A stretch of DNA of 51,262 nt from Coriobacteriia bacterium (GTDB lineage: Bacteria > Actinomycetota > Coriobacteriia > Anaerosomatales > PALSA-660): the NCBI GenBank assembly GCA_025361505.1, contig JANYKZ010000077.1, positions 1-51,262 of the forward strand, in the 5' to 3' direction. Under the pieces are notes generated by a model that saw only the letters and a program-made list of their open reading frames with translations, did not search any database and was not told the origin of the DNA. Of this stretch, positions 16,004 through 38,308 are shown piece by piece. A program made the translations under genes and the position numbers. Each line of letters starts with the position of its first letter. The stretch's first letter is position 1.

Positions 16004-16089
16004 GCCCGGGTGGCGGAACGGCAGACGCGGGGGCCTCAAAAGCCTCTATGTGAAAGCATGTGTGGGTTCGAATCCCACCCCGGGCACCA
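16004..16089 (+). tRNA. tRNA-Leu(CAA)
   Basis: Acceptor stem GCCCGGG/CCCGGGC, anticodon arm GGGGC-CTCAAAA-GCCTC, long variable arm, GGTTCGAATCC, encoded CCA. Confidence 0.97.
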
Positions 16090-24692: not shown

Positions 24693-25787
24693 TCAGGGCG
24701 CGAGGGGCACGGAGAACCCCACGATCGCTCCTCCGTCGTGGTTGCGCGCAAACACGGTGCCACCGTGATCCTCGACGATCCGGCGTGAGACGGCGAGCCC
24801 TATGCCGCTGCCGCCCGTGTCGCGTGCCCGCGCCGTGTCCGCGCGGTAGAAGCGTTCGAACACGAACGGAAGGTCGGCCTCAGGGATCCCCTCGCCGCTG
24901 TCCACGACCTCCACGATCGCGCGCTCGTCCGATCGTTGGCATCTCACCAGGATCGTGCCCGCATCGGTGTGGCGAAGCGCGTTGTCGACGAGGTTGCGCA
25001 GCACCTGAGCGAGGCGGCCTTCATCTCCGATCACGGCGAGCGCCTCGGAGCACTCCGCCGCGACCTCCACGTCGGCGCCCGCGCGTGCCCGGGCACGCGT
25101 GACTTCCGCGTCGATGATCGGGGCCACCAGGAGGCGCTCCATCCGGTAGGTCAACCGTCCCGCATCGGCCGCCGACAGTTCCTGAAGATCGTCGACGAGA
25201 CGCGAGAGGTGCTGCGTGTCCTCCACGAGCGAGGTCAGGCGTTTCGGGTCAGGGGCTAGAACGCCCTCGGCGATCCCTTCCGCCTGCGCTCGGAGCGACG
25301 CGACCGGGTTGCGCAGTTCGTGGGCTACGTCGGCCACGAGCCTGCGCCTCAGCCCCTCGGACCGGGCAAGCGACACGGCCATCGCGTTGAACGCCTCCCC
25401 GAGCCGGCTGACCTCGAGGGGACCGCCGGTATCGACACGGTACGTCAGGTCGCCGGCAGCGACCTGCTTCGCAGCCGACGTGAGACGCTTGAGGGGACGT
25501 GTGAGGTAGTAGGCGCCTGCGGCCGCGACCACCCCCGCGAGTCCGATCGCCAGCAGCGCGCCGAGAAGGATGCCCCTGTCGACCGCCGCGAGGAACGCCT
25601 GTTCCGGCACACCCATCATGCCGCCGGCGCCCATCATGCCGCGCCCCATGCCGACGGGCAGAGTCTGCAGGTAGGCGCCGAACGCGGACGAGATCTCCGC
25701 GCGCGTGAATATCCCGGCGATGCCGACGGACAGCAACGCCACGACGACCATCGCGAGGAACGCGTACACCAGAAGAGAACGCTTCAC
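24693..25787 (-). CDS. Membrane sensor histidine kinase (HAMP; BaeS/CopS-like)
   Basis: Two TM helices with a Met-rich loop, [31 protein letters not shown]. Confidence 0.93.
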
Positions 25788-26476
25788 GGGCGCGCCTCGA
25801 CTTTGTAGCCCACGCCGAAGACCGTCTGCACGTAGCGCGGGTCCTTCGAATCGTCCCCGAGCTTCCGCCGAAGGTTCTTCACGTGCGCGTCCATCGTGCG
25901 CTCGTAGCCCTCGTACGCGACCCCCTGGGCGGCCTCCATGAGCTGCATCCGGCTGTAGACGCGACCCGGGTGTGCGACGAGGGTCGCCAGGATGTCGAAC
26001 TCCGTGCGAGTCAGAGGGATCGGCACGCCGGCGGCGCGCACGACTCGGCCGCCCCGGTCGATCTCGAGGTCGCCCAGGCTCAGGACCTTCGCGGGCTCCG
26101 CCGCTTCGGCGCGCTCCGCTCGCCGAAGGACCGCCTTAACGCGCGCCACGACCTCGCGCGGGCTGAACGGTTTGCTGATGTAGTCGTCCGCTCCGACCTC
26201 GAGTCCGATCAGACGGTCGATCTCCTCGGTCCGGGCGGTGACCAGGATGACGGGGAGATCGTAGTCGCGCTGGAATCGGCGCGTCAGTTCGATGCCGTCG
26301 ATGCCCGGCAACATGATGTCGAGCAGTGCGAGGTCGGGGCGCGCGGACTCGGCGACGGCTACCGCTTCGGGGCCGTCGGCGGCCGTGACGACGTCGAACC
26401 CCTCCTTGCGCAGGTAGGCGGTCAGTACTTCAACGATCTTCGGGTTGTCGTCGACCACGAGGATGCTCTTGGCCAC
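25784..26476 (-). CDS. OmpR-family response regulator
   Basis: VVDD, LDIMLP, GADDYISKPF, LTRTEF, TVFGVGY. Confidence 0.95.
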   Translation of the reverse strand: MAKSILVVDDNPKIVEVLTAYLRKEGFDVVTAADGPEAVAVAESARPDLALLDIMLPGIDGIELTRRFQRDYDLPVILVTARTEEIDRLIGLEVGADDYISKPFSPREVVARVKAVLRRAERAEAAEPAKVLSLGDLEIDRGGRVVRAAGVPIPLTRTEFDILATLVAHPGRVYSRMQLMEAAQGVAYEGYERTMDAHVKNLRRKLGDDSKDPRYVQTVFGVGYKVEARP

Positions 26477-26659
26477 CGCGCGCTCCTCTCAGGGTTCGTC
26501 GCCTCCATTGTGCCCCATGCCACGGCGGCCTCGTCCCAGCCGGCCCGGCGTGCCCGCACCGGCAGTATCGCGAGCCCGTGTGAAGCGCGTGTGAATGTGC
26601 GAGGGCAGTCGACGCTCGATCGGGTCACGAGTCGCTCCGGCGCGCAGGACTTGGGCACC

Positions 26660-26697
26660 TTCACGCAACGTTCACGACCGGTTCGCCTCACCTTCAC
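26660..26697 (+). promoter_or_regulatory. Tandem OmpR-type binding boxes
   Basis: TTCAC/TTCAC/TTCGC/TTCAC at 26660, 26671, 26682 and 26693 (11-bp period), followed by GATAGT at 26708. Confidence 0.65.
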
Positions 26698-26765
26698 CCG
26701 AGCACGGGATAGTGGGTTCGAGACAAGAACCCGACGGCCTTCAGGGCCGAGAACAGGAGAGCGAC

Positions 26766-27131
26766 ATGAACACCAGGACCAAGATCGTCGCCGGCGCCAT
26801 CGCAGGTGTCGTAGCGGGAGCCACCCTCATGGGTGCCGCGTTCGCCGCCCCGCAGGGACTCGGCGCCGCGGCGCCCGCCGTCTATCGGATGATGGGATCA
26901 GCGGTCACGTCCGCTGCCGCCGGGATCCCGACGGTGGCCGATATGCAGGCGTTCATGAGCCGCTACCGCACCTCGTCGGGCGCGATCGACATGAACCGCA
27001 TGCATGCCGACGTCACGGGCGGCAAGGTCACGCCGCCCTGCGTGAGCGGGTCGAGGCGGTCAGCCGGAGCATCCTCTTCCGGCCAGGCCGCGCCGGGTGC
27101 CGGCTACGGGATGATGGGCGGTTCCTACTAG
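26766..27131 (+). CDS. Secreted Met-rich small protein
   Basis: SD AGGAGA; signal peptide ending AFA; RMMG, MNRMH, GMMGG. Confidence 0.8.
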   Translation: MNTRTKIVAGAIAGVVAGATLMGAAFAAPQGLGAAAPAVYRMMGSAVTSAAAGIPTVADMQAFMSRYRTSSGAIDMNRMHADVTGGKVTPPCVSGSRRSAGASSSGQAAPGAGYGMMGGSY

Positions 27132-27261
27132 TCGACCCTGACACGGCACCCGGCACGGCCTCGAACGCGAGACCGTGCCGGGTGCCGTCGGCGTTCGCTC
27201 GATGGCTCCGCTATCGACGCGGCATGTTCGCGGCAGGCCGCACGCGTGCGTGGACGCCGGT

Positions 27262-29250
27262 TCACGACGTGACGCGCAACGTCCTTGCGTTGACGGCGAC
27301 GATGACGGTCGACGCGGACATGAGGACTCCGCCGACCGCGGGGCTGAGCAGCACGCCGAACCCCGCGAGCACTCCCGCGGCAAGCGGGATGGCGACCACG
27401 TTGTAGCCGGTGGCCCACACGAGGTTCTGCACCATCTTCCCGTAGGTGGCGCGAGCCAGGTCGATGATGGCCGCGACGTCCTCGGGATTGCTCCGGACGA
27501 GAACGATGTCGGCGGTGGCGACGGCGACGTCGGTCCCCGCGCCGATGGCTATCCCGACGTCTGCCGAGGCCAGGGCCGGCGCGTCGTTCACTCCGTCCCC
27601 GACCATCGCAACTACCTTGCCCTCAGCCTGGACGAGCCGGATGGTCGCGGCCTTGTCGGCGGGCATGACCTCGGCGAAGAACCGTCCTATCCCGAGCTCC
27701 TTCGCGATGCGCTCAGCGACCACTCGGGTATCACCGGTGAGCATGATGGGCTCGATGCCCATCTCCCTGAGCCGCGTGACGGCGCGGATCGACTCGGGCC
27801 GGACCACGTCGGCCAACGCGATCGCGGCGACGACGACGCCGTCGAGCAGCACGTGGACGACCGTCCTCCCCCCGGCGGCCAGTGCGTCCGCGCCCTCAGG
27901 CGCGGCGATGCCGTTCTCCGCCAAGTATCCGGGGCTGACGACCGCCACCTCTCGGCCATCGATCACTCCCCGAGCCCCCCTGCCGGGGATGGCGCGGAAG
28001 TCGGTCACCGGGGACTTCGACGGCGCCGCGTCCGCGATCGCTCGGGCGATCGGGTGTTCGGACAGCTCCTCGACCGAGCCGGCCAGAGAGAGTGCATCCT
28101 CGCGAGTCAGTTCGCCGTACAGCGCCACGTCGGAGATGCCGAAGCGCCCGAGCGTGAGCGTGCCGGTCTTGTCGAAGATCACGGCGCTCAGCAGGCGCGC
28201 GTTCTCGAACGCCATCCGGTCGCGTACGAGGAGCCCGGTCTTGGCGCCGAGCGCCGTGGAGAAGGCCACGACGAGCGGGATCGCAAGGCCCAGCGCGTGC
28301 GGGCAGGCGATCACCATGACCGTGACCGCTCGTTCCATCGCGAACGACAGCGGCTTGCCCAACGCCAGCCAGACCGCGAACGTCGCGGCCCCGCCGCCCA
28401 GAGCGACGATCGTCAGCCACGTGGCGGCCCGGTCAGCGAGGTCCTGCGTCTTGGACTTCGACTCCTGCGCCTCCCGTACCAGGTCGGCGACCTGGGCCGC
28501 GAACGATTCGGCGCCCATGCGCCTGACAACGACGGTCAACGCGCCCTCGCCGTTGACCGCCCCTCCGATCACGGCGTCCCCCGGTGCCTTGCCGACGGGG
28601 ACCGACTCACCGGTGAGCATCGACTCGTCGACGGACGACGCGCCGTCGACCACGTCACCGTCGGCGGGGACCTTCTCACCCGGCTTGACTACGACGACGT
28701 CGCCGGGCTGCAGAGCGCCGAGCGCGACGTCCTCGGTGCTCCCATCGGGAAGGCGGCAATGCGCCTCGGAGGGCATCAGCTCCGCGAGCGACTCGAGCGC
28801 CTTGGACGCCTCGCCGACCGACCGCATCTCGACCCAGTGGCCGAGCAGCATGATGTCGACCAGGGTCGCCAGCTCCCAGAAGAACGGCATGCCGCGCAGG
28901 CCGAGGACCGTGGCGCCGCTGTAGAAGTAGGCGACGCTGATCGCAACGGCGACCAGCACCATCATCCCGGGTTTGCGTGCGCGCAGCTCGCGGGCGAAGC
29001 CCCTGAGGAACGGCATGCCGCCGAACACGTACAGCACGGTGGAGAGCGCGAGCAGGATCAAGTCCGCCCCGGGGACCGAGAGCAAGCGCGCTTCGGGAAG
29101 GAAGGGCAACCCCTGGGACAGCAGGACGACGGGAACGGTCAGCGCGATGCTGATCCAGAACCGCCGGCGGAAGTCGGCGATCGAGTGGCCGGTGTGGCGA
29201 CCAGCCGGGTGGGGACCGGTCCCGGTCGAGTGTGCGGAGTGCTCGTCCAT
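27262..29250 (-). CDS. copB: Copper-translocating P1B-3 ATPase (CopB type)
   Basis: His-rich N-terminus, [33 protein letters not shown]. Confidence 0.93.
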
Positions 29251-29286
29251 GATCCCGGCTCTCGTCGCTGGCGGGCCGCGGCGGCG

Positions 29287-29423
29287 TCAGACTCCGAGCG
29301 TCGTGCAGATCTCCTCGTACCGTTCCTTTGTGATCTCGCCCTTCGCGTAGCGCAGTTGGCGATCGAGCACGCGTCCTCACCCGGAGGCGAAGCGGCGTGA
29401 CGCTGTCCCGACCCGTTCCGCAT
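29287..29423 (-). pseudogene. SHOCT-domain remnant, apparently frameshifted
   Basis: GEDACSIA in one frame joins LRYAKGEITKERYEEI in another at GCC AA CTG. Confidence 0.55.
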
Positions 29424-29474
29424 ACCTCGTTCATCCCCCGGCGAGCGACCTCCCATGCCGACCGGGACCCGCGC

Positions 29475-30536
29475 CTACCGCGACTCCGTCGCGTCGACCA
29501 CGACCAAGCTGCCGGACATCATGCCCATGCCGCATGTCATCGTGTAGGTGCCGGCCTTCATCGGCGGCACGAGCACGGCGGTGACTCCGTTGGCCGTGAG
29601 GTTCGCGAGCACCCCGGCACCAGGGATGCTGAGCTGAGAAGAGCACGCCACGTCCTCGCGGCGGTCGACGGAGAGGCGCACCTGAGTGCCCGCCGGGATG
29701 GTCACCCTGTCCGGGACGTAGGTCGTATTCTCGATCACGAGCGGTACCTCGACGACGCCGTCGGGGCCCGTCTTGAACCCCGCAAGGTTCGGTACGACCG
29801 CTCCGCCGACGACCGCTGTCCGAACGCTGTCGAACGTCACCGGCGAGCCCACGAGCATCAAGCCGCGGTCGAGGATGATCAGACCGAAGACCACGACGGC
29901 GACGGCCGCCACGATCTGCAACCTCGCCTGGAACCGGCGCGACAGCAGCGACGAAGCGAACCCGAAGACCAGCATCAGCGGCATCGTCCCGAGCCCGAAA
30001 CCCACCATCGCCCACGCTCCGAGCAGCGGCGAGCCGCTCTGCACCGCGCGCAGCTGCGCTGCGATCAAAGGAGCGCACGGCATCAGCCCCGTGAGCAACC
30101 CGAAGATGATCGGCGTTGCGAGCGACACGTGTCCCTCCGCGGCATCGGCCGTCGCCTTCCTCCGCTCGCTGGACAGCGCCCTGACCAGGAACCTCGGAGG
30201 GCGAGGCGTCAGATACCGGAGGGCCCTGACCCTCCCGGTCATCGAGACGCCCAGCAAGACCATGTACACGCCCGCCGCGACCATGAGCCAGTTGCGGAAC
30301 GGTGTGATGTCCACAGCGCGCCCCGCCAGCGCGACGAGCCCGCCGAGGATCAGCGCCACCGCAGCGTAGCTGAGCACCTTGGAACCTTGGTACGCAAGGT
30401 GTGGCAGGAGCCGCCGGTACCACGGACCGTCCTCGGTGCCCTTCACCGCATAGGTCAGAACGAGCCCGCCGCACATGAAGATGCAGTGGACTCCTGTCGC
30501 CAGGCCGAGCAGGAACATCGTCAGGAACAGATCCAC
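29475..30536 (-). CDS. DsbD_2/TauE-like membrane protein fused to a C-terminal cupredoxin domain
   Basis: HCIFMCGG, GLMPC, FGLGTMP; C-terminal AC...TCGMGM. Confidence 0.9.
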   Translation of the reverse strand: MDLFLTMFLLGLATGVHCIFMCGGLVLTYAVKGTEDGPWYRRLLPHLAYQGSKVLSYAAVALILGGLVALAGRAVDITPFRNWLMVAAGVYMVLLGVSMTGRVRALRYLTPRPPRFLVRALSSERRKATADAAEGHVSLATPIIFGLLTGLMPCAPLIAAQLRAVQSGSPLLGAWAMVGFGLGTMPLMLVFGFASSLLSRRFQARLQIVAAVAVVVFGLIILDRGLMLVGSPVTFDSVRTAVVGGAVVPNLAGFKTGPDGVVEVPLVIENTTYVPDRVTIPAGTQVRLSVDRREDVACSSQLSIPGAGVLANLTANGVTAVLVPPMKAGTYTMTCGMGMMSGSLVVVDATESR

Positions 30537-30698
30537 GCCGCAGACCCTCCCGCATCGTCGCCGCACGCGTCGCGTGAACGCGCCGCCATCATCATGCCTC
30601 ATCCGCCTGCGGGGGGACGTACGATACGAGGGGCGACCCTGACGAGGCTGTTGGCACCGCACTTGCGACAGCAGGGGTCCTGGCGATCGGGAGACGTG

Positions 30699-31406
30699 AT
30701 GAACAAGAGGGTACTGATCTGGCTCGCAGTGATCGCCATCTTCGGCGCGCTGCTGCTCGCCGTGACGACGCCCGCCGCGGCGGTGCTGAAGAAGGTCGAC
30801 GGCTCGGAGCTCACCCAACTGCAGGACTCCGGCGCCATGGTCGTCGACGTTCGCTCCGCGAGCGAGTACGCGTCGGGCCACATACCGGGAGCGTCCAACG
30901 TGCCGCTGGAGCAGTTGCAGCAGGCCGCGGCCACGTGGAGCAAGGACCGGGCGGTCGTGGTCTACTGCGCGACCGGCGCCCGCTCCGCGAACGCGGCGGC
31001 CTACCTCGCGGGCCAGGGGTTCAGGAAGGTGTACGACCTCACGAACGGGATGGTCGCGTGGACCGGGTCCGTCCAGGGAGGCGCGGGCGGGGTGCCGTCG
31101 GGACCCGGTACGGTGAAGACGAGCGGCAAGCCGGTCTTCATCGACTTCTCCTCCAGCACTTGACCCACCTGCATAGAGATGAAGCCTCTGGTCGAGAGGC
31201 TCGCGCAGGAGTACAAGGGCAAGATCGAGTTCCGCCGCTATGTCGACAGCGGGGATCCCGTGGGCGATCAGTTGGCGCAGACGTTCAACGTCCAGTACGT
31301 TCCGACGTTCGCGTTCGTGGATTCCGACGGCAGCCTGTCGGGGCAACTGCTCGTGGGCGGCGTCACCGAGGACGTGCTGCGGGCGCGACTCGACGTTCTC
31401 AAGTAG
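30699..31406 (+). CDS. Exported or membrane-anchored rhodanese-thioredoxin fusion selenoprotein (Sec at TGA 31161-31163, UPTC motif)
   Basis: N-terminal signal/TM; rhodanese (VDVR, GHIPGA, CATGARS); thioredoxin FIDFSSST-[TGA]-PTC continuing in frame to VQYVPTF; SECIS-like hairpin downstream. Confidence 0.88.
31161..31201 (+). promoter_or_regulatory. Bacterial SECIS element
   Basis: AGCCTCT-GGTCG-AGAGGCT 7-bp stem; the G-initiated loop starts 26 nt after the UGA. Confidence 0.8.
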
Positions 31407-31476
31407 GATCCCAGCGGGAAGGTCGTCCCGATCGATGGTGCGGCCGCGCGCTCGTGCGGCCTGAGAGGAACGGCGC

Positions 31477-32205
31477 GTGCAGGCAGGTCTTCTGGGTCTC
31501 CTCGTAGCGTTCGGCGCCGGCCTGGTGTCGTTCCTGTCGCCGTGCGTGCTTCCGCTGATCCCGGGCTACGTGTCCTTCATCACGGGGTTCAGCCCCGCGG
31601 ACCTGTCCGAGGGCAAGCCCCCTCTGAGCGCGGTCCTCATCCCCAGCCTTCTGTTCGTCGCAGGATTCGGTTTCGTCTTCGTCGCCCTCGGTGCCTCCGC
31701 GTCCGTGCTCGGCGCTCTTCTCGCTCCCTACAAGGCGACCCTGGCGCGCGTTGCCGGGGTGCTCGTGATCCTGATGGGGATCTTCCTCCTCGGCGTCATC
31801 AAGATCCCGGGCCTGTATGCGGAGAAGCGCTTCGACCTATCGAAGACGCGCTCGTTCGGTCGCGGCGCTGCCTTCGTGATGGGCATGGCGTTCGCGTTCG
31901 GGTGGACCCCCTGCGTCGGACCGATCCTGGGCGGCGTCCTCGCTCTTGCGGGCACGTCGGCCGAAGTGGGGCGCGGCGCCGCCCTCCTGCTCGCCTACTC
32001 GCTGGGCCTGGGGGTGCCGTTCGTGGTGACCGGCGTCTTCCTCGGGCGCCTGCACGGCACGCTGCGGTTCCTCAACCGGCATTCGCTGGGCCTGAACCGC
32101 GTCGCGGGGGCGCTGCTCATCGTCATGGGCCTGCTCATGATGACGGGGAGACTTGCGGCGGTGGGCGTGCTGATCCTGCGCCTGCTGCCGGCCTCCGTCG
32201 GATAG
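31477..32205 (+). CDS. ccdA: Cytochrome c biogenesis / disulfide transfer protein CcdA
   Basis: SFLSPCVLPLIPGY, GWTPCVGPILG, YSLGLGVPF. Confidence 0.93.
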   Translation: MQAGLLGLLVAFGAGLVSFLSPCVLPLIPGYVSFITGFSPADLSEGKPPLSAVLIPSLLFVAGFGFVFVALGASASVLGALLAPYKATLARVAGVLVILMGIFLLGVIKIPGLYAEKRFDLSKTRSFGRGAAFVMGMAFAFGWTPCVGPILGGVLALAGTSAEVGRGAALLLAYSLGLGVPFVVTGVFLGRLHGTLRFLNRHSLGLNRVAGALLIVMGLLMMTGRLAAVGVLILRLLPASVG

Positions 32206-32218
32206 CAGCACCGGCCGT

Positions 32219-32250
32219 GAGGACGGGGCGCCCGAAGGCGCCCCATCCTC
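32219..32250. terminator. Hairpin between convergent genes
   Basis: GAGGACGGGGCGCC-CGAA-GGCGCCCCATCCTC. Confidence 0.65.
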
Positions 32251-32278
32251 TGACCGAAACCAGTGCGTGCGAACGGAT

Positions 32279-32998
32279 CTACGCTCCGACCTTGCGGTCG
32301 GTCGGCTGCGGGGTCCACTGGTCCATCGCGGCGTTGTCGATGACGATCTTGCCGCCCACGACCTTGGCCGGGAGCTCGTCGAGCGGGTACAGCCTGCAGG
32401 CGCCGCTGATCCCCACTCCGGTCTCCGCGTCACGCGTGGTCCCGCAGGCGCTGCATCTGAGGATGCCGTCGGCCTCGAGCGTCTGCTGCTTGCCCTTGCA
32501 CGGGATGCAGAAGCTCACGCCCACGAACAGCTTGCCGGAGGGCTTCACGTACGCGACCATCGGGACCGGATCGGACCCGGCCTTCTTGTACTCGAAGTAC
32601 ACGATCTTGTTCGCGACGACGTCGGCGAGGGACACCGAGGTCTGCTTGGGCCCCTGCGCCGGCGTCGCATTGAACATCGCGACCGTCGACCCATAGGGCG
32701 CCGCCGGCGCGACCGAAGGCTCGGTGTAGGCGGCCGGCAACAGGCGGCCGATGTACTTGGCCTCTTCGGGAGGCACCGCGCCCTGCGTCGCTCCGGACGC
32801 GGCAGTCGCCCCGGGCGAAGCCGTGGCGGTAGCCCCGGTGATGCCCTTGGGCCCACCGTTGCCCACCACCACGACCACGATCGCGACTGCGACGATCGCG
32901 ACCGCGACCGCAGCCCACGTGCCGACCCCGACGCTCTTCTCCTTGGCAGGCGGAGCCGCCTTGTGGGGAACCGGACTCTTCGTCTTCTTCTTGGCCAT
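32279..32998 (-). CDS. Membrane-anchored Fe-S-type protein (DUF2318/FtrD-like)
   Basis: N-terminal TM; CIPC, CSACG, GAC..YPL. Confidence 0.75.
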   Translation of the reverse strand: MAKKKTKSPVPHKAAPPAKEKSVGVGTWAAVAVAIVAVAIVVVVVGNGGPKGITGATATASPGATAASGATQGAVPPEEAKYIGRLLPAAYTEPSVAPAAPYGSTVAMFNATPAQGPKQTSVSLADVVANKIVYFEYKKAGSDPVPMVAYVKPSGKLFVGVSFCIPCKGKQQTLEADGILRCSACGTTRDAETGVGISGACRLYPLDELPAKVVGGKIVIDNAAMDQWTPQPTDRKVGA

Positions 32999-33082
32999 CT
33001 CAGGTCTCCATCTCTCTTACCAGGTCGGGGTCGACGGGGGTCCTGCGCGCGTCGCCCGGCGATCCTTCGGACTGCGTCGGCC

Positions 33083-33520
33083 CTACTTCGCGGTGAACGC
33101 GACGGTCTGGAGGACCGGCGGGTCGAAGGGCGTGGTGTCGTTCTGGACGAGCTCGGCCTTCAGCGTGTGAGGCCCGGGAGTGACGCCGCTCAGAGCGTAG
33201 TCAGGAGTAGCGCTCATCTTGATGGGCTGAGAGTCCAGCGTGAAGTGCACGTGACCCTCACCGGGAACCAGCTTCGTGCTCGGCATCGCGAACTTCAGAC
33301 CGGTCGTCTCGAGCTTGATCACGATCTCACCGGCCTTGACCACTGCGCCGTCGAGAGGGGCGAGGACCTTGATGGTCGGACCGGCGACGACGGTTGAGCC
33401 GCCCTGTACGGGGGACGTCTGCGCGCCGGAAGTGCGCGGCGTGGCCGCGCAGCCTGCGAGTAGAACGGTGATCGTCAGGGCGATCAGGGCGATCAGCGCG
33501 CTGTAGGTGCGGCGATTCAT
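33083..33520 (-). CDS. Lipoprotein with a His-containing beta domain (DUF4399-like)
   Basis: Lipobox LAGC; GEGHVHFTLD; PGPHTL. Confidence 0.75.
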   Translation of the reverse strand: MNRRTYSALIALIALTITVLLAGCAATPRTSGAQTSPVQGGSTVVAGPTIKVLAPLDGAVVKAGEIVIKLETTGLKFAMPSTKLVPGEGHVHFTLDSQPIKMSATPDYALSGVTPGPHTLKAELVQNDTTPFDPPVLQTVAFTAK

Positions 33521-33556
33521 CGAGACCTCCGGGTGCTGGGCAGTCGGGGCACGGAG

Positions 33557-33769
33557 CTAGGCGACCTCGGCGCCATAGCCGGCGTCCTTGATCGCCGTGA
33601 CGATCTGCTCGATCGACACGAGAGCGGGGTCGAACTCGACCAGGGTGGTCCCCTTGCCGTAGTCCGCCTTGACCGAGCCGATGCCGGGCAGGTCGTCGAC
33701 GGTCATCTCGATGAGCATCGAGCACGAGCCGCAGTGCATGCCGCTGGTCTTGAGAACCGTCGATTCCAT
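33557..33769 (-). CDS. copZ: Copper chaperone (HMA domain)
   Basis: SD GAAGGAGA; GMHCGSC; AGY. Confidence 0.9.
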   Translation of the reverse strand: MESTVLKTSGMHCGSCSMLIEMTVDDLPGIGSVKADYGKGTTLVEFDPALVSIEQIVTAIKDAGYGAEVA

Positions 33770-33847
33770 TGCAGCTGGTCTCCTTCGGGTGTGGTGGGGA
33801 GCCCGGGCCCGACGCTGACTCGCGCCGGGCACGGGCGAGGGAGGGGT

Positions 33848-34684
33848 CTACTTGACGCGTACCGCGGTCGCGACCTCTGCGCCGTTCACGAAGAACGGCT
33901 GGTCCGGACTGTTGTACTTGTCCATCATGTCGAACTCGAGAGTGCCGATGACGCCACGATCGGCGTGGACCGCGACGAGCAGCTTGTCGGTGAGCGCGAT
34001 GGCGGGGTCGAGCTTGACGATCACGTTGGTGTTCGTCCCTGCGGCGATCTGCGCGAAGCCGACGCGCGCGCCGGGCTTGCCGTTGTCGTCGAGATGCACG
34101 ACGATCCACGCTCCGGTCGGGGCCACGGCCTTGGCGACCGTGATGGAGCCCCTGGCGCCGGGCTGGTCCGCCACGGTGATCGAAGCCTCGCCATCACTGG
34201 CATTGACTCCGAACGGCGGCGTCGCGACCTTGACCTCCATCGCCAACTCCATCCCGCCGACGAAATAGGGCTTGTCGGGGCTGGAGTCGAACTTGGTCTT
34301 GTCGAACTCGAACGCACCGATGATGCCGCGGTCGGCGTGAACCGCGACGATCAGCTTGTCCGTGAGCGCGACGTCGTCGATCTTGACGACCACGTTGCTG
34401 CTGTCCCCTGCCGGGATCGCCTGGAGGCCGATCCGCTTGCCGGGCATCCCGTTGTCATCGAGGTGCACGGCGATCCACGAGGGACCGGGCACGTGCACAC
34501 CCGCGACCGTGATGGTGCCCTTGGCGCCGGGCTGGTCCATCACCTCGATGCTCGCGCTCTTGGCGGTGGCGACGACGCCGACCATCTTGCCGGCGCTCGA
34601 CGCATTGGCGAACGCGTAGACGGTCATGCTCAACGTGAACAGCACACCCAGCACGACGCCGAGGGTATTGAGGAAACGCTTCAT
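33848..34684 (-). CDS. Secreted protein with two DUF7282-like domains retaining His residues
   Basis: SD AAAGGAGA; signal peptide; two copies of WI.VHLDDNG.PG...VAVHADRG...D.P(Y/F)FV. Confidence 0.85.
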   Translation of the reverse strand: MKRFLNTLGVVLGVLFTLSMTVYAFANASSAGKMVGVVATAKSASIEVMDQPGAKGTITVAGVHVPGPSWIAVHLDDNGMPGKRIGLQAIPAGDSSNVVVKIDDVALTDKLIVAVHADRGIIGAFEFDKTKFDSSPDKPYFVGGMELAMEVKVATPPFGVNASDGEASITVADQPGARGSITVAKAVAPTGAWIVVHLDDNGKPGARVGFAQIAAGTNTNVIVKLDPAIALTDKLLVAVHADRGVIGTLEFDMMDKYNSPDQPFFVNGAEVATAVRVK

Positions 34685-34710
34685 GGTTCCGATCTCCTTT
34701 CGGCGAAGAG

Positions 34711-37704
34711 CTAGGCGGCCTTCGAGAAGCTGGGCTTGAACCGGCGCAGCAGCAGCGAGCTGCTCACGACGCTAACGCTGGAGAGCGCCATGGCGGCGCC
34801 GGCCAGTTCCGGCCGGAGGAGCCCCAGCGCGGCGATCGGGATGCCGAGCGTGTTGTAGCCGAGCGCCCAGAAGAAGTTCTGGTAGATCTTGCGCATGGTG
34901 GCGCGGGACAGCTCGATCGCGGTCACCACGTCGCGCAGGTCGTTCTTGATGAGGACGATGCCGCCGGTCTCCATGGCGACGTCCGTGCCGCCGCCCATGG
35001 CGATGCCGACGTCGGCCTTCGCAAGCGCCGGCGTGTCGTTGATGCCGTCTCCGACCATGGCGACGACGAGTCCCTTTGCCTGGAGCTTGCCGACCTCTTC
35101 GGCCTTGTTCTCCGGGAGCACCTCGGCGAGGACGTTCTCGGGCCTGATGCCGGCCTGCGAGGCGATGGCCTCGGCGGTGCGGCGGTTGTCGCCCGTGATC
35201 ATGTACACGGCCACGCCCATCTTGGTGAGCCGCTCCACCGCTTCCTTGGAGTTGTCCTTCAGCGTGTCCGCCACGGCGATGAGGCCGGCGGCCTGTCCGT
35301 CGATCGCAGTGAGCATGACCGTCTTGCCCTCGGACTCGAGGCGCTCGATGCGGACCGCGAACTCGGCGATGTCGACGCCTTCACGCTCCATGAGCCTGCG
35401 GTTGCCCAGCGCGACGCGCCGGCCTTCGACGATGCCCTCGACTCCGTGACCGGGAACGGCCTCGAAGCCGGTGACGTCGCCGAGCACGAGTCCGTTCTCG
35501 TTGGCGTAGTTGACGATCGCCTCGGCCAGCGGATGTTCGCTGCTTCTCTCCAGCGCGGCCGCGAGCCGGTAGAACTCCATGCGGTCGAACGACCCGAACG
35601 GACCGAACTCCGTCACCACGGGCTTGCCGTAGGTCAGCGTGCCGGTCTTGTCGAACACGATCGCCTTGATCTTGTAGGCGGTCTCAAGGGCGTCACCGCT
35701 CTTGATGAGGATGCCGTTCTCGGCGCCCTTGCCGGTACCGACCATGATGGCCGTCGGCGTGGCGAGCCCGAGCGCGCAGGGGCAGGCGATGACGATGACC
35801 GCGGTCCCGGCGAGCAGCGCCTTCACGAACGGCGTGGCGAACGCGTAGAACGAGGCGTCAACGAAGCCCGGCACGACGAACAGCCAGATGAAGAAGGTCG
35901 CCAGAGCGATGGTGATGACGGCCGGTACGAACACGGCCGAGATCCGGTCGGCGAAGCGCTGCACGGGCGCCTTGGAGCCCTGAGCGTCCTCCACGAGACG
36001 GACGATCTGCGCCAGTGCGGTGTCCTTGCCGACCTTGGTGGCGCGGAACCTGAGCGAGCCGAGCTTGTTCATCGTCGCGCCGATGACCGAGTCACCGACG
36101 TTCTTCTCGACCGGCATGGACTCGCCGGTGAGCATCGACTCGTCGATGCTGCTGCGTCCTTCGACGACGAGGCCGTCGACCGGGACCTTCTCACCGGGGC
36201 GGACCACGACGACGTCGCCGGCCACGACCTGCTCGACCGGGATGTCGAGCTCGACGCCGCCGCGCACGACGCGCGCCGTCTTGGCGGCAAGGCCCATGAG
36301 CTTCTTGATGGCGTCCGAGGTCTTGCCCTTCGCGCGCGCCTCGAGCAGCTTGCCCAGGATGACGAAGGTGATGAGCAGCCCGGCGGTCTCGAAGAAGACC
36401 GGCTCGGCCTGCAGCGACGGGATGAACGTCGCGGCCACGCTGTAGAAGTACGCCGCCGACGTGCCGATGGCGATGAGCGTGTCCATGTTGCCGCTGCGGC
36501 GCTTGAGCGCGTGCCAGAAGCCGCGGTAGAACTGCGCGCCCGCGATGAACTGGACCGGCGTGATCAGGGCGAAGGCCATGTACTTGAGGACCATCATCGG
36601 GTCCCAGGCGCCGCCGAACGTGCTGGCGAGCCAGGTGGCCACGGCGGCCGGCACCACGGTCATGAACGGCGGCACCATGGAGATGAGGAACGCCGGCAAC
36701 GCCAGCAGCAGCGAGAACATGAAGAGCCACTGCTGGTGCTTGGTGTGCTTCGCCTGCGCGACGCGCTGGGCGTCCTCCGCGGGGGCGTCGGCGGACGTGC
36801 CGGTCTCCACGCGGAGCATCGCCTCGTAGCCGGCGCCCTTCACCGCGCCGATGAGGGTGTCCAGGCCGACGACGGCCGGGTCGAACGTCACCGTGGCGGT
36901 CTCCAGCGCGAGGTTCACGGAGGCCGACTGCACTCCGGTCACCTTGTTGAGCGTCTTCTCGATCACGGCGGAACAGGAGGAGCAGGTCATCCCGACAAGA
37001 CCGAGCGTGACCGTGCCCATCGGCGAGCCCTTACCGGATGACGCGGTGGCCGTGGTCACGGCCGGTGCCGCAGCGGGCACGGGGGCGTCGAGCGGTATGG
37101 CGCCGTAGCCGGCCTTCTTGACCGCCTCGGCGATGCGGACCTCGTCGGTGACCGACGGATCCAGCTTGACCGACATCCTCTCGGTCGCGAGATTGACCGT
37201 GACGGCCTGGACGCCGGCGACCTTGCCGACGACCTTCTCGATCACGGCGGAGCACGACGCGCAGGTCATCCCCGTGACGGCGAACGATGCGTCGCGGACC
37301 GCCGAAGCGGCGCCGGACGGTGCGGCAGGCGCGGCGGGAACCATCACGGCGACGGGCTCGGCCACGACCGGGCAGGCTGCGGGCGCTATCGCGGGGCCCG
37401 AGGCGACCCCGACCAGGGGACTCGCGGCGATCGCGACTCCCTCAGGGACGAAGCCGCAGGCCACGATGACGCGGGCGATGTCCACGTCGGTGAGGACGGC
37501 GGGATCCGCGAGGACGGACACCATTCCGGTCCGTGCATCCGCGGACACGGCGCCGACGCCGGGCTGGCGTCCGAGCGCCTCGACGAGCAGGTTCTCGCAC
37601 GAGCGGCAATCCATGCCGTCGACCCTGAGCCGGCGGAGCACCGGCCCTCGTGATGTCGCGATCTCGGGCTCCGTGCGGGAGCCTGTGAATTCGGTCGTTT
37701 CCAT
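34711..37704 (-). CDS. copA: Cu(I)-translocating P1B-1 ATPase with three HMA domains (paralog)
   Basis: GMDCRSC, GMTCASC, GMTCSSC, CPC, DKTGT, GDGIND, YN, MALSS; SD AGAGGAG. Confidence 0.95.
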
Positions 37705-37711
37705 GGCTCCT

Positions 37712-38308
37712 CTACTCTGCCGTGATGCTGCCATGCACCATGTGCATGCCGCAGCTGAAGGGGTAGACGCCGGGCTCGAGCGCGGGGATGGTGACGACCG
37801 CGCCGCCGTGGGTGAGGTCAGCCTCGATGCCGAGGCCCTCGAACACGACGGTCGCCAGACAACCGCTGCCCTCCGAGAACGTGATCTCGAGCGGGATGCC
37901 CGCGGCGACCACGATGTCGGACGGGTCGTAGTCGTCCGTGACCTCGATACGGACGCGCTGTGACAGCGAAGTCTCGACCGGGACGCGGACCGGGACGCGC
38001 GGGGGCTCCGGAGCCTCCAGCGCCACGGTCTCGGCCAGCGTGAGCGGGATCCGCTCGGTGAGCCGCTCGAACGGGGTGGCCACCACGGACTCCGGCGCGA
38101 ACCCGGCGGTGACGACCGCCTTCACGATGTCTTCGTACAGGTCGGTGTCGGCCGAAGCGAGCGCGATGAGCGTCCCCTCGTTGTTGACCGCGACGATCTC
38201 GACGCCGTCGATGTCGCGCACGAGCATGGTCGCCAGCGTCTCGCCGGACCGACAGGCTCCTTGGCCGAGCGCCACGCGGTAGACATCTTTGATGACTCCG
38301 TTTGCCAT
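37712..38308 (-). CDS. Degenerate HMA-like domain plus cupredoxin domain protein
   Basis: N-terminal ACRSG...AGF; C-terminal [18 protein letters not shown]. Confidence 0.8.

What the first reader, a model, noticed from the sequence alone, without database searches (positions are those of the whole stretch)
30699..31406. Hidden selenoprotein: exported rhodanese fused to a UxxC thioredoxin
Seen: the ORF track splits this gene at TGA 31161, which falls exactly on the first Cys position of the thioredoxin motif (FIDFSSST-U-PT-C). The frame continues to the cis-Pro motif VPTF, and a perfect SECIS-like hairpin follows. The downstream 75-aa ORF alone lacks an active site. The rhodanese keeps its catalytic Cys (CATGAR). 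Known: Sec thioredoxin-like and Sec rhodanese proteins exist separately. I do not know of a characterised signal-bearing rhodanese-Trx(Sec) fusion; novelty is unverified.
Basis: partly seen in the sequence, partly recalled or inferred. Interest (0 to 1): 0.85.

Follow-up and report, generated by a model that had tools for sequence, protein, structure and literature searches.

The report
Membrane-anchored rhodanese–thioredoxin selenoprotein gene
This gene, cut short in database annotations, most likely encodes one protein that joins a sulfur-transfer domain to a thioredoxin domain whose active site uses selenocysteine, an unlisted but unsurprising addition to bacterial selenoproteins.

Summary
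ORF 30699-31406 (+) has one in-frame TGA (31161-31163) at the first position of the thioredoxin redox motif (T-U-P-T-C). A perfect 7-bp hairpin with loop GGUCG follows (31183-31201).

Read through, the product is 235 aa: an N-terminal membrane helix, a rhodanese domain (CATGAR), a flexible linker and a thioredoxin fold (cis-Pro VPTF).

The genome carries tRNA-Sec, selA, selB and selD. TGA sits in the same column in 51 of 51 readable related loci from 50 genomes of the same order (uncultured Coriobacteriia, some labelled Anaerosomatales). The hairpin keeps pairing through compensatory changes, including a synonymous Pro-codon change that covaries with an Arg/Gly change. Coding constraint continues past the TGA. 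Cys-containing rhodanese-thioredoxin fusions exist elsewhere, with Cys aligned to U.

Public protein entries stop at about 156 aa and are named 'rhodanese-like'. No NCBIfam model reaches its cut-off, and a 2026 inventory of 119 selenoprotein (sub)families lists no such fusion.

The function is inferred. I read it as an extracytoplasmic selenol/thiol reductase acting on the tethered rhodanese, or on other substrates, recycled by CcdA, which is encoded next door here but in only 4 of 52 loci.

Verdict: a real, conserved and mis-annotated selenoprotein. It is a new member of a known kind, of moderate interest.

The parts
30699..31406 (+). Whole selenoprotein gene (235 codons plus TAG stop). ATG 30699 is preceded by GGGAG; the in-frame TGA is read as Sec.
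   Evidence: Orthologues align from M1 to the C-terminal LDALK.
30705..30767 (+). N-terminal hydrophobic helix (residues 3-23), a membrane anchor or signal sequence. K3/R4 lie on the N side, so both domains should face outward.
   Evidence: AlphaFold2 models helix 3-23 with block pLDDT 84-93. A hydrophobic N-terminus is present in all orthologues. Topology is inferred from the positive-inside rule.
30807..31064 (+). Rhodanese domain (residues 37-122). The catalytic loop is Y-C90-A-T-G-A-R-S, with the Cys codon at 30966-30968.
   Evidence: Pfam PF00581, E 2.1e-21. Cys is kept in 50 of 52 related loci. Foldseek gives TM 0.84-0.86 (normalised to the target) to the single-domain rhodaneses 3iwh, 3mzz and 3gk5.
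31068..31130 (+). Gly/Ala/Pro-rich flexible linker (about residues 124-144).
   Evidence: pLDDT is below 50 for residues 129-134, and pTM is 0.56 despite a mean pLDDT of 92.4. Length and sequence vary among orthologues.
31113..31385 (+). Thioredoxin-fold domain (residues 139-229) with redox motif U155-P-T-C158 and cis-Pro loop V201-P202-T203-F204 (31299-31310).
   Evidence: Pfam PF00085, E 1.3e-10. C155(U), C158 and P202 are invariant in 52 aligned sequences. Foldseek gives TM about 0.8 to thioredoxin m.
31161..31163 (+). In-frame UGA read as selenocysteine (residue 155).
   Evidence: TGA is invariant in 51 of 51 loci. Cys is aligned to it in 5 Cys-form homologues.
31183..31201 (+). Bacterial SECIS-type hairpin inside the coding sequence. 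Stem 31183-31189 pairs with 31195-31201; the apical loop GGUCG is at 31190-31194. It lies 19 nt after the UGA.
   Evidence: 97.5% of cells paired; pairs 33-43 (UA 37, CG 14) and 34-42 (GC 37, CG 11, AU 2, UA 1) covary with no unpaired cell.
31477..32205 (+). ccdA (DsbD_TM family), 70 nt downstream on the same strand. It is the probable membrane electron donor for the thioredoxin domain in this genome.
   Evidence: Pfam PF02683, E 4.8e-17. It is the only DsbD_TM match in G000. It is adjacent in only 4 of 52 related loci.

Best explanation
30699-31406 is one gene for a 235-residue selenoprotein. The ribosome reads UGA 31161-31163 as selenocysteine, because SelB with Sec-tRNA(Sec) binds the hairpin at 31183-31201 inside the coding sequence. 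My odds that the UGA is decoded this way are about 0.93.

The product is held in the membrane by an N-terminal helix. A rhodanese domain (Cys90) and, after a flexible linker, a minimal thioredoxin fold (Sec155-Pro-Thr-Cys158) sit on the outer face. Topology is inferred.

The most likely chemistry is also inferred, with odds of about 0.4 for this exact scheme.
1. Cys90 takes up sulfane sulfur, for example from thiosulfate or polysulfide, to form a persulfide, or it becomes oxidised.
2. The Sec155 selenolate of the tethered thioredoxin domain attacks it. This releases sulfide or restores the thiol, and Cys158 resolves the intermediate to a Se-S bond.
3. CcdA re-reduces that bond with electrons from cytoplasmic thioredoxin. 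CcdA is encoded directly downstream here.

In this window the gene sits in a metal-handling neighbourhood, so surface thiol/sulfide chemistry linked to metal stress is a plausible local use.
For: Shown:
- One in-frame TGA at the first position of the redox motif, and both Pfam domains above their cut-offs.
- tRNA-Sec, selA, selB and selD lie together on contig C93 of the same genome.
- 49 of 61 genomes of the same order carry the fusion with exactly one TGA. One more has the Sec-thioredoxin part without a rhodanese part.
- TGA is invariant in 51 of 51 loci and in 47 of 47 complete orthologues.
- The hairpin shows 97.5% pairing, against 25-49% in slid controls. Across 51 sequences, CCU pairs with AGG (37) or CCC with GGG (14) and never mixes, so a synonymous Pro change tracks an Arg/Gly replacement. 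CUG..GAG, GUG..GAC, AUC..GAU and UUG..GAA all stay paired.
- Codon-position divergence downstream of the TGA is 0.37/0.31/0.47, the same coding pattern as upstream (0.43/0.37/0.55).
- C158, P163, V165, L168, V201, P202, G220 and L234 are invariant after the TGA in the 20 closest orthologues.
- Cys forms with the same architecture exist.
- The ATG of the 75-aa ORF is CTG, GTC or ATT in 3 of 51 relatives and GTG in a fourth, so a separate start there is not conserved.
- AlphaFold2 gives mean pLDDT 92.4 with a TM helix, two folded domains and a disordered linker.
- ccdA is adjacent and is the only copy in this genome. All 61 of 61 relatives have a DsbD_TM gene somewhere.

Background:
- The E. coli rhodanese GlpE has been studied for its interaction with thioredoxin. 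I saw only the title of Ray et al. 2000, in the reference list of PMC2593051; that thioredoxin accepts the sulfur is recalled.
- Reduction of a periplasmic rhodanese persulfide to H2S by a dithiol protein was proposed in PMC2593051 (passages).
Against: - No direct evidence of Sec insertion. No RNA run holds the stretch, there are no proteomics, and Rfam has no matching model (0 matches).
- In the window alone the hairpin is only z = -2.34.

Against the specific relay:
- AlphaFold2 does not dock the two domains (pTM 0.56).
- One orthologue (L058) has Tyr in place of the rhodanese Cys yet keeps the TGA and the hairpin.
- One relative (G007) has the Sec-thioredoxin part without rhodanese.
- A stand-alone Sec-thioredoxin paralogue exists in this genome. 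The Sec domain can therefore work without Cys90.
- ccdA adjacency holds in only 4 of 52 loci.
- The DsbD_2-cupredoxin neighbour is found in 1 of 52 loci.
- Most relatives have unrelated neighbours: Amt and P-II downstream, and a large gene without a Pfam match upstream.
- In E. coli, loss of PspE did not change Cd sensitivity (PMC2593051, passage).
Confidence: 0.85

Rival explanations
1. Same selenoprotein, different job. The Sec-thioredoxin domain is a general extracytoplasmic reductase for other proteins, as ResA, CcmG or TlpA-type proteins fed by CcdA are. The rhodanese domain would be an accessory, sensing or substrate-binding module, not its redox target.
For: - The Sec domain persists where the rhodanese Cys is lost (L058) or the rhodanese domain is missing (G007).
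- Stand-alone Sec-thioredoxin paralogues with the same hairpin exist.
- AlphaFold2 gives no fixed inter-domain contact.
- In relatives, several thioredoxin-like genes lie just beside DsbD_TM genes. For example G055:C4:33841-34116, with one TGA, lies next to 34185-34742.
Against: - The fusion with an intact rhodanese Cys is kept in 50 of 52 loci across 25 families. The same fusion recurs with Cys in other lineages. Both argue that the two active sites work together.
Confidence: 0.3
2. Same selenoprotein, acting on metals or metalloids. The selenol/thiol pair and the rhodanese Cys would handle selenite, tellurite, arsenate, Hg or Cu at the cell surface, either by reducing or binding them or by producing sulfide that precipitates soft metals. 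This would form part of the metal island.
For: - The window neighbours are two P-type ATPases, at 27262-29250 and at 34711-37734 (the latter with 3 HMA domains).
- Also nearby are a DsbD_2-cupredoxin protein (29475-30560), an FtrD-like protein and a two-component system.
- The window-type copy forms a fully supported clade that also contains extra copies from two other families. That fits a mobile island.
- The sulfide-precipitation idea is in print (PMC2593051).
Against: - The metal context is not conserved: DsbD_2-cupredoxin is found in 1 of 52 loci and ccdA in 4 of 52.
- The rhodanese loop is the 6-residue sulfurtransferase type (CxxGxR), not the 7-residue arsenate-reductase or phosphatase type. 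That distinction is recalled.
- The E. coli PspE test for Cd was negative.
Confidence: 0.15
3. UGA is a true stop. The gene ends at 154 aa as a membrane-anchored rhodanese, and the thioredoxin part is either untranslated or made separately from ATG 31179.
For: This is how every public annotation reads it. All 120 listed hits are at most 187 aa, cover at most 66% of the query, and carry only PF00581. When selenium is scarce a truncated product is expected from any selenoprotein gene.
Against: - The TGA, the reading frame and the residues after it are conserved in 47 of 47 orthologues, with a coding pattern of divergence.
- The 75-aa ORF lacks the redox motif. Its ATG is CTG, GTC or ATT in 3 of 51 relatives and GTG in a fourth.
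- A covarying hairpin sits at the right place.
- Cys forms are continuous proteins.
Confidence: 0.04
4. The TGA is an artefact or a recoding of another kind: a sequencing error, a pseudogene, or UGA read as Trp, Gly or Cys.
For: The genome is an uncultured-organism assembly in 109 contigs at 90% completeness.
Against: - The same TGA occurs in 50 independent genomes.
- Two runs hold contigs identical over the stretch, though they may be the source of this DNA.
- TGA serves as an ordinary stop in about 43% of long, coding-like ORFs of this genome and ends 8 of the 52 orthologues.
- Trp or Gly at the nucleophile position would kill the motif.
Confidence: 0.02

Closest known systems
Thioredoxin-fold UxxC selenoproteins: Thioredoxin (PF00085, experimentally verified) and 'thiol:disulfide interchange protein' (PF13098, predicted), as listed in Table 1 of PMC13188914
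   Same: Same fold, with Sec at the N-terminal nucleophile position of the CxxC motif, decoded by a hairpin just after the UGA. Pfam PF00085 and PF13098 are both above cut-off.
   Different: Here the domain is the C-terminal half of a membrane-anchored fusion with a rhodanese. The motif is U-P-x-C rather than the classical C-G-P-C, and the location is extracytoplasmic. The NCBIfam thioredoxin equivalogs score far below their cut-offs (31.5 against 96.8 bits).
Cys-containing rhodanese-thioredoxin fusion proteins (P0136, P0269, P0205, P0209, P0242, P0253)
   Same: Same order of parts: a hydrophobic or lipoprotein-type N-terminus, then rhodanese, then thioredoxin. Cys aligns with U155. Identity to the window protein is 26-34%.
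   Different: They use Cys (WCPGC, WCVPC, WCAPC, WCKPC, SCPAC). Close Cys forms are rare: 2 of 17 hits at E<=1e-20.
TsoB, rhodanese/DsbD fusion-like selenoprotein (NF045694), and rhodanese selenoproteins forms 1-5
   Same: These also combine a rhodanese domain, DsbD-type membrane redox chemistry and selenocysteine (PMC13188914 Table 1).
   Different: In those families Sec lies in or beside the rhodanese domain (UxxS, UxxG, CxU, UxxxxU). Here the rhodanese keeps Cys and Sec is in the thioredoxin domain. The DsbD-type protein is a separate gene. Scores are 52.4 bits against a cut-off of 805 for TsoB, and 49.2 against 115 for NF041203.
CcdA-fed extracytoplasmic thioredoxin-like reductases (ResA, CcmG/DsbE, TlpA, Etrx; recalled)
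   Same: A membrane-tethered thioredoxin fold faces outward, and a ccdA gene lies beside it in this window. The C-P-x-C-type motif resembles the CcmG motif, which I recall as WCPTC.
   Different: Those proteins use Cys, have no rhodanese domain, and carry insertions that this minimal fold of about 95 residues lacks. ccdA adjacency is seen in only 4 of 52 loci.
E. coli single-domain rhodaneses PspE (periplasmic) and GlpE
   Same: Single rhodanese domain with a CxxGxR loop. The PDB profile search hits GlpE (1gmx, E 2.7e-15) and PspE (2jtq, E 4.3e-14). A GlpE-thioredoxin interaction has been studied (title of Ray et al. 2000 only, seen).
   Different: Those are separate proteins. Here the reductant is fused to the rhodanese and carries Sec.

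Membership tests
Bacterial selenoprotein gene (SelB/bSECIS-decoded UGA) | In-frame UGA with conserved coding sequence on both sides | tested here: met
   TGA is in the same column in 47 of 47 orthologues. Divergence by codon position downstream is 0.37/0.31/0.47.
Bacterial selenoprotein gene (SelB/bSECIS-decoded UGA) | Stem-loop immediately 3' of the UGA, with G in the apical loop, conserved as a structure | tested here: met
   A 7-bp stem with loop GGUCG; 26 nt separate the UGA from the loop. Two pairs covary, 97.5% of cells are paired, and 0 of 500 shuffles match. The spacing and loop rules of bSECISearch are recalled; that program was not available.
Bacterial selenoprotein gene (SelB/bSECIS-decoded UGA) | selA, selB, selC and selD in the same genome | tested here: met
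   All four lie on contig C93.
Bacterial selenoprotein gene (SelB/bSECIS-decoded UGA) | Homologues with Cys aligned to Sec | tested here: met
Bacterial selenoprotein gene (SelB/bSECIS-decoded UGA) | Selenium found in the protein (75Se labelling or mass spectrometry) | not testable with these tools
   No proteomic data are available, and no RNA run holds the stretch.
Thioredoxin fold, PF00085 | Profile match above cut-off, a CxxC-position motif, a cis-Pro loop and the fold | tested here: met
   41.7 bits against a cut-off of 23.5. U155-x-x-C158 and P202 are invariant. Foldseek gives TM about 0.8 to thioredoxin m.
Rhodanese, PF00581 (sulfurtransferase type) | Profile match and a catalytic Cys in a six-residue CxxGxR loop | tested here: met
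   76.7 bits against a cut-off of 22.2. The loop is C-A-T-G-A-R, with Cys in 50 of 52 loci. Enzyme activity cannot be tested here.
TsoB rhodanese/DsbD fusion-like selenoprotein (NF045694) | Score above the curated cut-off, a UxxxxU motif and a fused DsbD part | tested here: not met
   52.4 bits against 805, over the rhodanese part only. There is no UxxxxU motif, and DsbD_TM is a separate gene.
Rhodanese-related (seleno)protein NF041203 (CxU) | Score above cut-off, with Sec in the rhodanese loop | tested here: not met
   49.2 bits against 115. The rhodanese loop has Cys only.
Thioredoxin-like (seleno)protein SaoT (NF040730) | Score above cut-off | tested here: not met
   18.3 bits against 65.
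CcdA-dependent extracytoplasmic reductase | Outward-facing thioredoxin fold with a linked ccdA gene, and electron transfer from CcdA | tested here: inconclusive
   The TM helix and an adjacent ccdA are present in the window. Adjacency holds in 4 of 52 loci, although 61 of 61 genomes have a DsbD_TM gene. Electron transfer cannot be tested here.

The most novel reading that the evidence does not exclude
This is a family that depends almost wholly on Sec, with hardly any Cys forms. It would act as a cell-surface sulfane-sulfur (thiosulfate or polysulfide) reductase. The rhodanese persulfide would be cleaved by the tethered selenolate to release sulfide outside the cell. In the window's lineage the gene was packaged with its own CcdA into a metal-resistance island and moved between families. 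When selenium is short, the same gene would yield a rhodanese-only anchor, so selenium supply would switch the enzyme between sulfur carrier and sulfur reductase.
Probability: 0.12. Interest if true: 0.65.

Novelty: new member of a known kind. Interest (0 to 1): 0.4.

Why it matters
A whole order of uncultured subsurface and sediment Coriobacteria carries a conserved selenoprotein that every public annotation cuts off at the UGA and labels 'rhodanese-like'. Metabolic reconstructions of these organisms therefore miss an outward-facing selenol redox enzyme. The family could be added to selenoprotein inventories and annotation models.

It is also a clean textbook case of an RNA structure constraining protein sequence: a synonymous Pro codon covaries with an Arg/Gly replacement. 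It gives a natural fused system for asking how a thioredoxin-type reductant works on a rhodanese persulfide, and why Sec rather than Cys is kept there.

It does not change what is known about how Sec is decoded.

Tried and rejected
**Neighbourhood as a guide to function.** I first took a DsbD_2-cupredoxin gene to be a conserved divergent neighbour, from ORF clustering. A direct tblastn showed it in only 1 of 52 loci, because antisense ORFs had chained the clusters. The upstream gene conserved in most relatives has no Pfam match in any tested frame. By eye it carries an EWLLDN-type motif. Downstream, Amt and P-II appear to be unrelated to this gene's function.

**Cys forms inside the order.** The full-length hits without a stop (L146-L149) turned out to be paralogues lacking both the rhodanese Cys and the CxxC. 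They are not Cys forms.

**Rfam.** There was no match at E<=10 on 31100-31300, and only a tRNA at gathering threshold in the whole window. This says nothing either way, since no matching model exists.

**Promoter and terminator scan.** Nothing was found in 30400-32400.

**Expression.** No RNA holder was listed. The laid contigs from 4 DNA runs only show that the stretch exists; two runs are identical to it and may be its source.

**Structure.** The AlphaFold2 model gives no fixed domain arrangement. Foldseek and the PDB sequence search found no chain covering both domains.

**Stop-codon bias.** The gene ends in TAG in 42 of 52 loci, against 53% TAG in a crude genome count. The loci are related to one another, so I draw no conclusion.

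**Tree.** Only the quick tree finished.

**Literature.** Searches found no paper describing this fusion as a selenoprotein or linking OPB41/Anaerosomatales with selenoproteins. Subscription journals and supplementary files were not searchable, so a mention there may have been missed.

Full report
**What is in the sequence.** On the + strand an ATG at 30699, preceded by GGGAG, opens a frame that runs to TAG 31404-31406 with a single in-frame TGA at 31161-31163. Standard ORF calling therefore gives a 5' piece ending at 31163 and a 75-aa piece from ATG 31179. Read through, the 235-residue product has these parts:
- a hydrophobic N-terminus;
- a Pfam Rhodanese domain at residues 37-122 (E 2.1e-21), with the loop Y-C90-A-T-G-A-R-S;
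- a Gly/Ala/Pro-rich linker;
- a Pfam Thioredoxin domain at residues 139-229 (E 1.3e-10).

The TGA falls exactly at the first position of the redox motif (S-S-T-U-P-T-C), and the cis-Pro loop is V-P-T-F. Nineteen bases after the TGA lies a perfect 7-bp hairpin, AGCCUCU-GGUCG-AGAGGCU, at 31183-31201.

**Is it more than chance?** In the window alone the hairpin region folds only moderately better than shuffles: z = -2.34, with 5 of 200 shuffles as good. The comparative evidence is what decides.

A six-frame search of 61 genomes of the same order (25 families) found the same two-domain gene with exactly one TGA in 49 genomes. In three of these it is interrupted by withheld bases. A Sec-thioredoxin part without a recognisable rhodanese part turned up in one more genome, G007. 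Two genomes have two copies, which gives 52 loci in all.

In 51 of 51 loci with readable sequence the TGA occupies the same column. In 47 of 47 complete orthologues the codon aligned to residue 155 is TGA.

Residues after the TGA are conserved: C158, P163, V165, L168, V201, P202, G220 and L234 are invariant in the 20 closest orthologues. Pairwise divergence by codon position downstream of the TGA is 0.37/0.31/0.47. That is the same coding pattern as upstream (0.43/0.37/0.55), so the region is translated in this frame.

**The hairpin is an RNA element.** Over 51 sequences, 97.5% of the stem cells form standard pairs, against 25-49% when the 3' arm is slid by 1-3 columns. None of 500 column shuffles reaches the observed pairing or covariation score.

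Two pairs change on both sides.
- The third base of a Pro codon (CCU or CCC, a synonymous change) pairs with the first base of the codon three positions on (AGG Arg or GGG Gly). The counts are 37 U-A and 14 C-G, with no mixed case.
- The next pair runs through C-G, G-C, A-U and U-A, as CUG..GAG, GUG..GAC, AUC..GAU and UUG..GAA.

A synonymous change that tracks an amino-acid replacement elsewhere has no protein-level explanation. The loop begins with GG in 45 of the 51 sequences. By recall this matches the G-containing apical loop of bacterial SECIS elements, and the 26-nt distance from UGA to the loop lies within the range used by bSECISearch. That program was not available. Rfam holds no model that matches.

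**Machinery and Cys homologues.** Contig C93 of the same genome holds:
- selD (E 1.8e-107, itself with one TGA followed by its own hairpin with a GGC loop);
- selA (E 2.6e-155);
- selB (wing domain E 2.9e-20);
- a tRNA-Sec (63.1 bits; ARAGORN calls it SeC with anticodon tca).

A profile search of 1.84 billion representative proteins returned five full-length, single-stretch matches among the best 150. These are P0136, P0205, P0209, P0242 and P0253. All have a hydrophobic or lipoprotein-type N-terminus, then Rhodanese and Thioredoxin domains, and a Cys aligned with U155. A further close Cys form, P0269, was found with P0136 as query.

Thus every classical criterion for a predicted bacterial selenoprotein is met except direct chemical proof.

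**Who has it.**
- Full-length relatives in the species-representative genome collection are uncultured Coriobacteriia or Actinomycetota assemblies. One is labelled Anaerosomatales and one 'Coriobacteriaceae bacterium EMTCatB1'.
- In 150 other genomes sampled across the phylum, none has a match at E<=1e-25.
- Close Cys forms are rare, 2 of 17 hits at E<=1e-20. The stop-free full-length hits inside the order are paralogues that have lost both active sites.

So within this clade the active protein is, as far as sampled, always the Sec form.

**Annotation status.**
- In the 5.8-billion-protein collection, all 120 listed hits are at most 187 aa, cover at most 66% of the query and carry only the rhodanese Pfam domain. 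Where named, they are 'rhodanese-like domain-containing protein' or 'rhodanese-related sulfurtransferase', and a few 'phage shock protein E'.
- No NCBIfam model reaches its cut-off. The nearest selenoprotein-specific models are TsoB (52.4 bits against 805), NF041203 (49.2 against 115) and SaoT (18.3 against 65).
- The 2026 review PMC13188914 lists 119 (sub)families. Its five rhodanese entries all have Sec in or beside the rhodanese domain, and no rhodanese-thioredoxin fusion appears (term search over the whole text; part 1 of 3 of section 7 read).
- Searches for the clade names together with 'seleno' found nothing relevant.

**Structure.** AlphaFold2 with 52 aligned sequences gives a mean pLDDT of 92.4 but a pTM of 0.56. 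It models a helix at residues 3-23, a rhodanese fold, a linker with pLDDT below 50 at residues 129-134, and a minimal thioredoxin fold. Foldseek matches single-domain rhodaneses (TM 0.84-0.86 normalised to the target) and thioredoxins (about 0.8) separately, and no solved chain covers both. The domains are therefore two beads on a flexible tether. With K3/R4 before the helix, they should face outward, but that topology is inferred.

**How it probably works.** The decoding step is well supported. The chemistry is inference.

A rhodanese Cys forms a persulfide, and the literature has discussed rhodaneses together with thioredoxin and with periplasmic dithiol proteins that could reduce that persulfide to sulfide (PMC2593051, passages). 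A thioredoxin domain fused to the rhodanese, with the more nucleophilic Sec at the attacking position, fits a built-in resolving partner. After attack, Cys158 would close a Se-S bond, which needs re-reduction from the cytoplasm.

In this genome the only DsbD_TM/CcdA gene lies 70 nt downstream on the same strand. All 61 related genomes have such a gene somewhere.

**What speaks against a strict intramolecular relay.**
- There is no confident domain docking.
- One orthologue has Tyr at the rhodanese Cys but keeps an intact TGA and hairpin (L058).
- One relative lacks the rhodanese part (G007).
- Stand-alone Sec-thioredoxin paralogues use the same hairpin.

I therefore give about 0.4 to the relay, about 0.3 to a more general outward-facing reductase role, and about 0.15 to a metal or metalloid role.

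**Context.** Around the gene the window carries a metal-type neighbourhood:
- a P-type ATPase (27262-29250, -);
- a DsbD_2-cupredoxin membrane protein (29475-30560, -);
- an FtrD-like protein (32279-32998, -);
- a P-type ATPase with three HMA domains (34711-37734, -);
- a two-component system (24693-26476, -).

This context is not conserved. ccdA follows the gene in 4 of 52 loci, and the DsbD_2-cupredoxin gene is found in 1 of 52. Most relatives have unrelated neighbours.

A quick tree places the window copy in a fully supported clade with its four same-genus copies. That clade also holds extra copies from two genomes of other families, which additionally keep a 'native' copy. This hints at transfer of an island, or at mis-binning.

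**Verdict.** This is a real, strongly conserved and systematically mis-annotated selenoprotein gene. It uses the ordinary bacterial Sec mechanism and the most common selenoprotein design, a UxxC thioredoxin fold, in an architecture already seen with Cys. It is new as a listed family but not new in kind. Interest is moderate.

Noticed in passing
G000 contig C66:16414-16665 (-) and C17:4822-5130 (-): The same genome has a small stand-alone thioredoxin-like gene with TGA at the same motif (FTSDT-U-PSC) and the same hairpin (GGCCCGU-GGUCG-ACGGGCU). A second copy on C17 has an extra in-frame TAG and a mismatched stem, so it is probably a decaying copy.
   Followed up: partly
G000 contig C93:3239-12455: selD, selA, selB and tRNA-Sec lie together on one contig. 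selD is itself a selenoprotein (TGA at codon 11 of the match), with a hairpin whose loop is GGC.
   Followed up: partly
window 24693-37734: A metal-handling neighbourhood: a two-component system (24693-26476, -), a P-type ATPase without HMA (27262-29250, -), a DsbD_2 plus cupredoxin protein with a C-terminal TCGMGMM motif (29475-30560, -), an FtrD-like protein (32279-32998, -), and a P-type ATPase with 3 HMA domains (34711-37734, -).
   Followed up: partly
L058 (G018:C17): This orthologue has Tyr instead of the rhodanese catalytic Cys (YYATGSRS) but keeps the TGA, the U-P-S-C motif and a paired hairpin with loop GGUUC.
   Followed up: no
L064 (G007:C22): A same-genus relative has the Sec-thioredoxin half (71% identical over residues 124-235) with no recognisable rhodanese domain upstream, although the contig continues.
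   Followed up: no
L146-L149 (G042, G019, G025, G044): These are lipoprotein paralogues with the same rhodanese plus thioredoxin-like layout that lack both the rhodanese Cys and the CxxC. They appear to be redox-dead versions.
   Followed up: partly
L015 (G023:C141), L016 (G052:C139) versus L046, L048: Two genomes of other families each carry a second copy that nests inside the window's genus clade (SH-aLRT 100, quick tree). L015 also has ccdA downstream. This is either horizontal transfer or mis-binning.
   Followed up: partly
stop codons of the 52 orthologues; whole G000: The gene ends in TAG in 42 of 52 loci. In a crude count of 758 long, coding-like ORFs of this 68% G+C genome, TAG (53%) outnumbers TGA (43%), which by recall is unusual for a high-G+C actinobacterium.
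   Followed up: partly
upstream of the gene in at least 35 related loci (e.g. L026:1-1386, -): A large, divergently transcribed gene with good codon bias, conserved among relatives and carrying an AEWLLDN(H/Y)YL motif, has no Pfam match at E<=0.001 in the part held.
   Followed up: partly
window 16004-16086 (+): An ordinary tRNA gene (Rfam tRNA, 54.8 bits).
   Followed up: no
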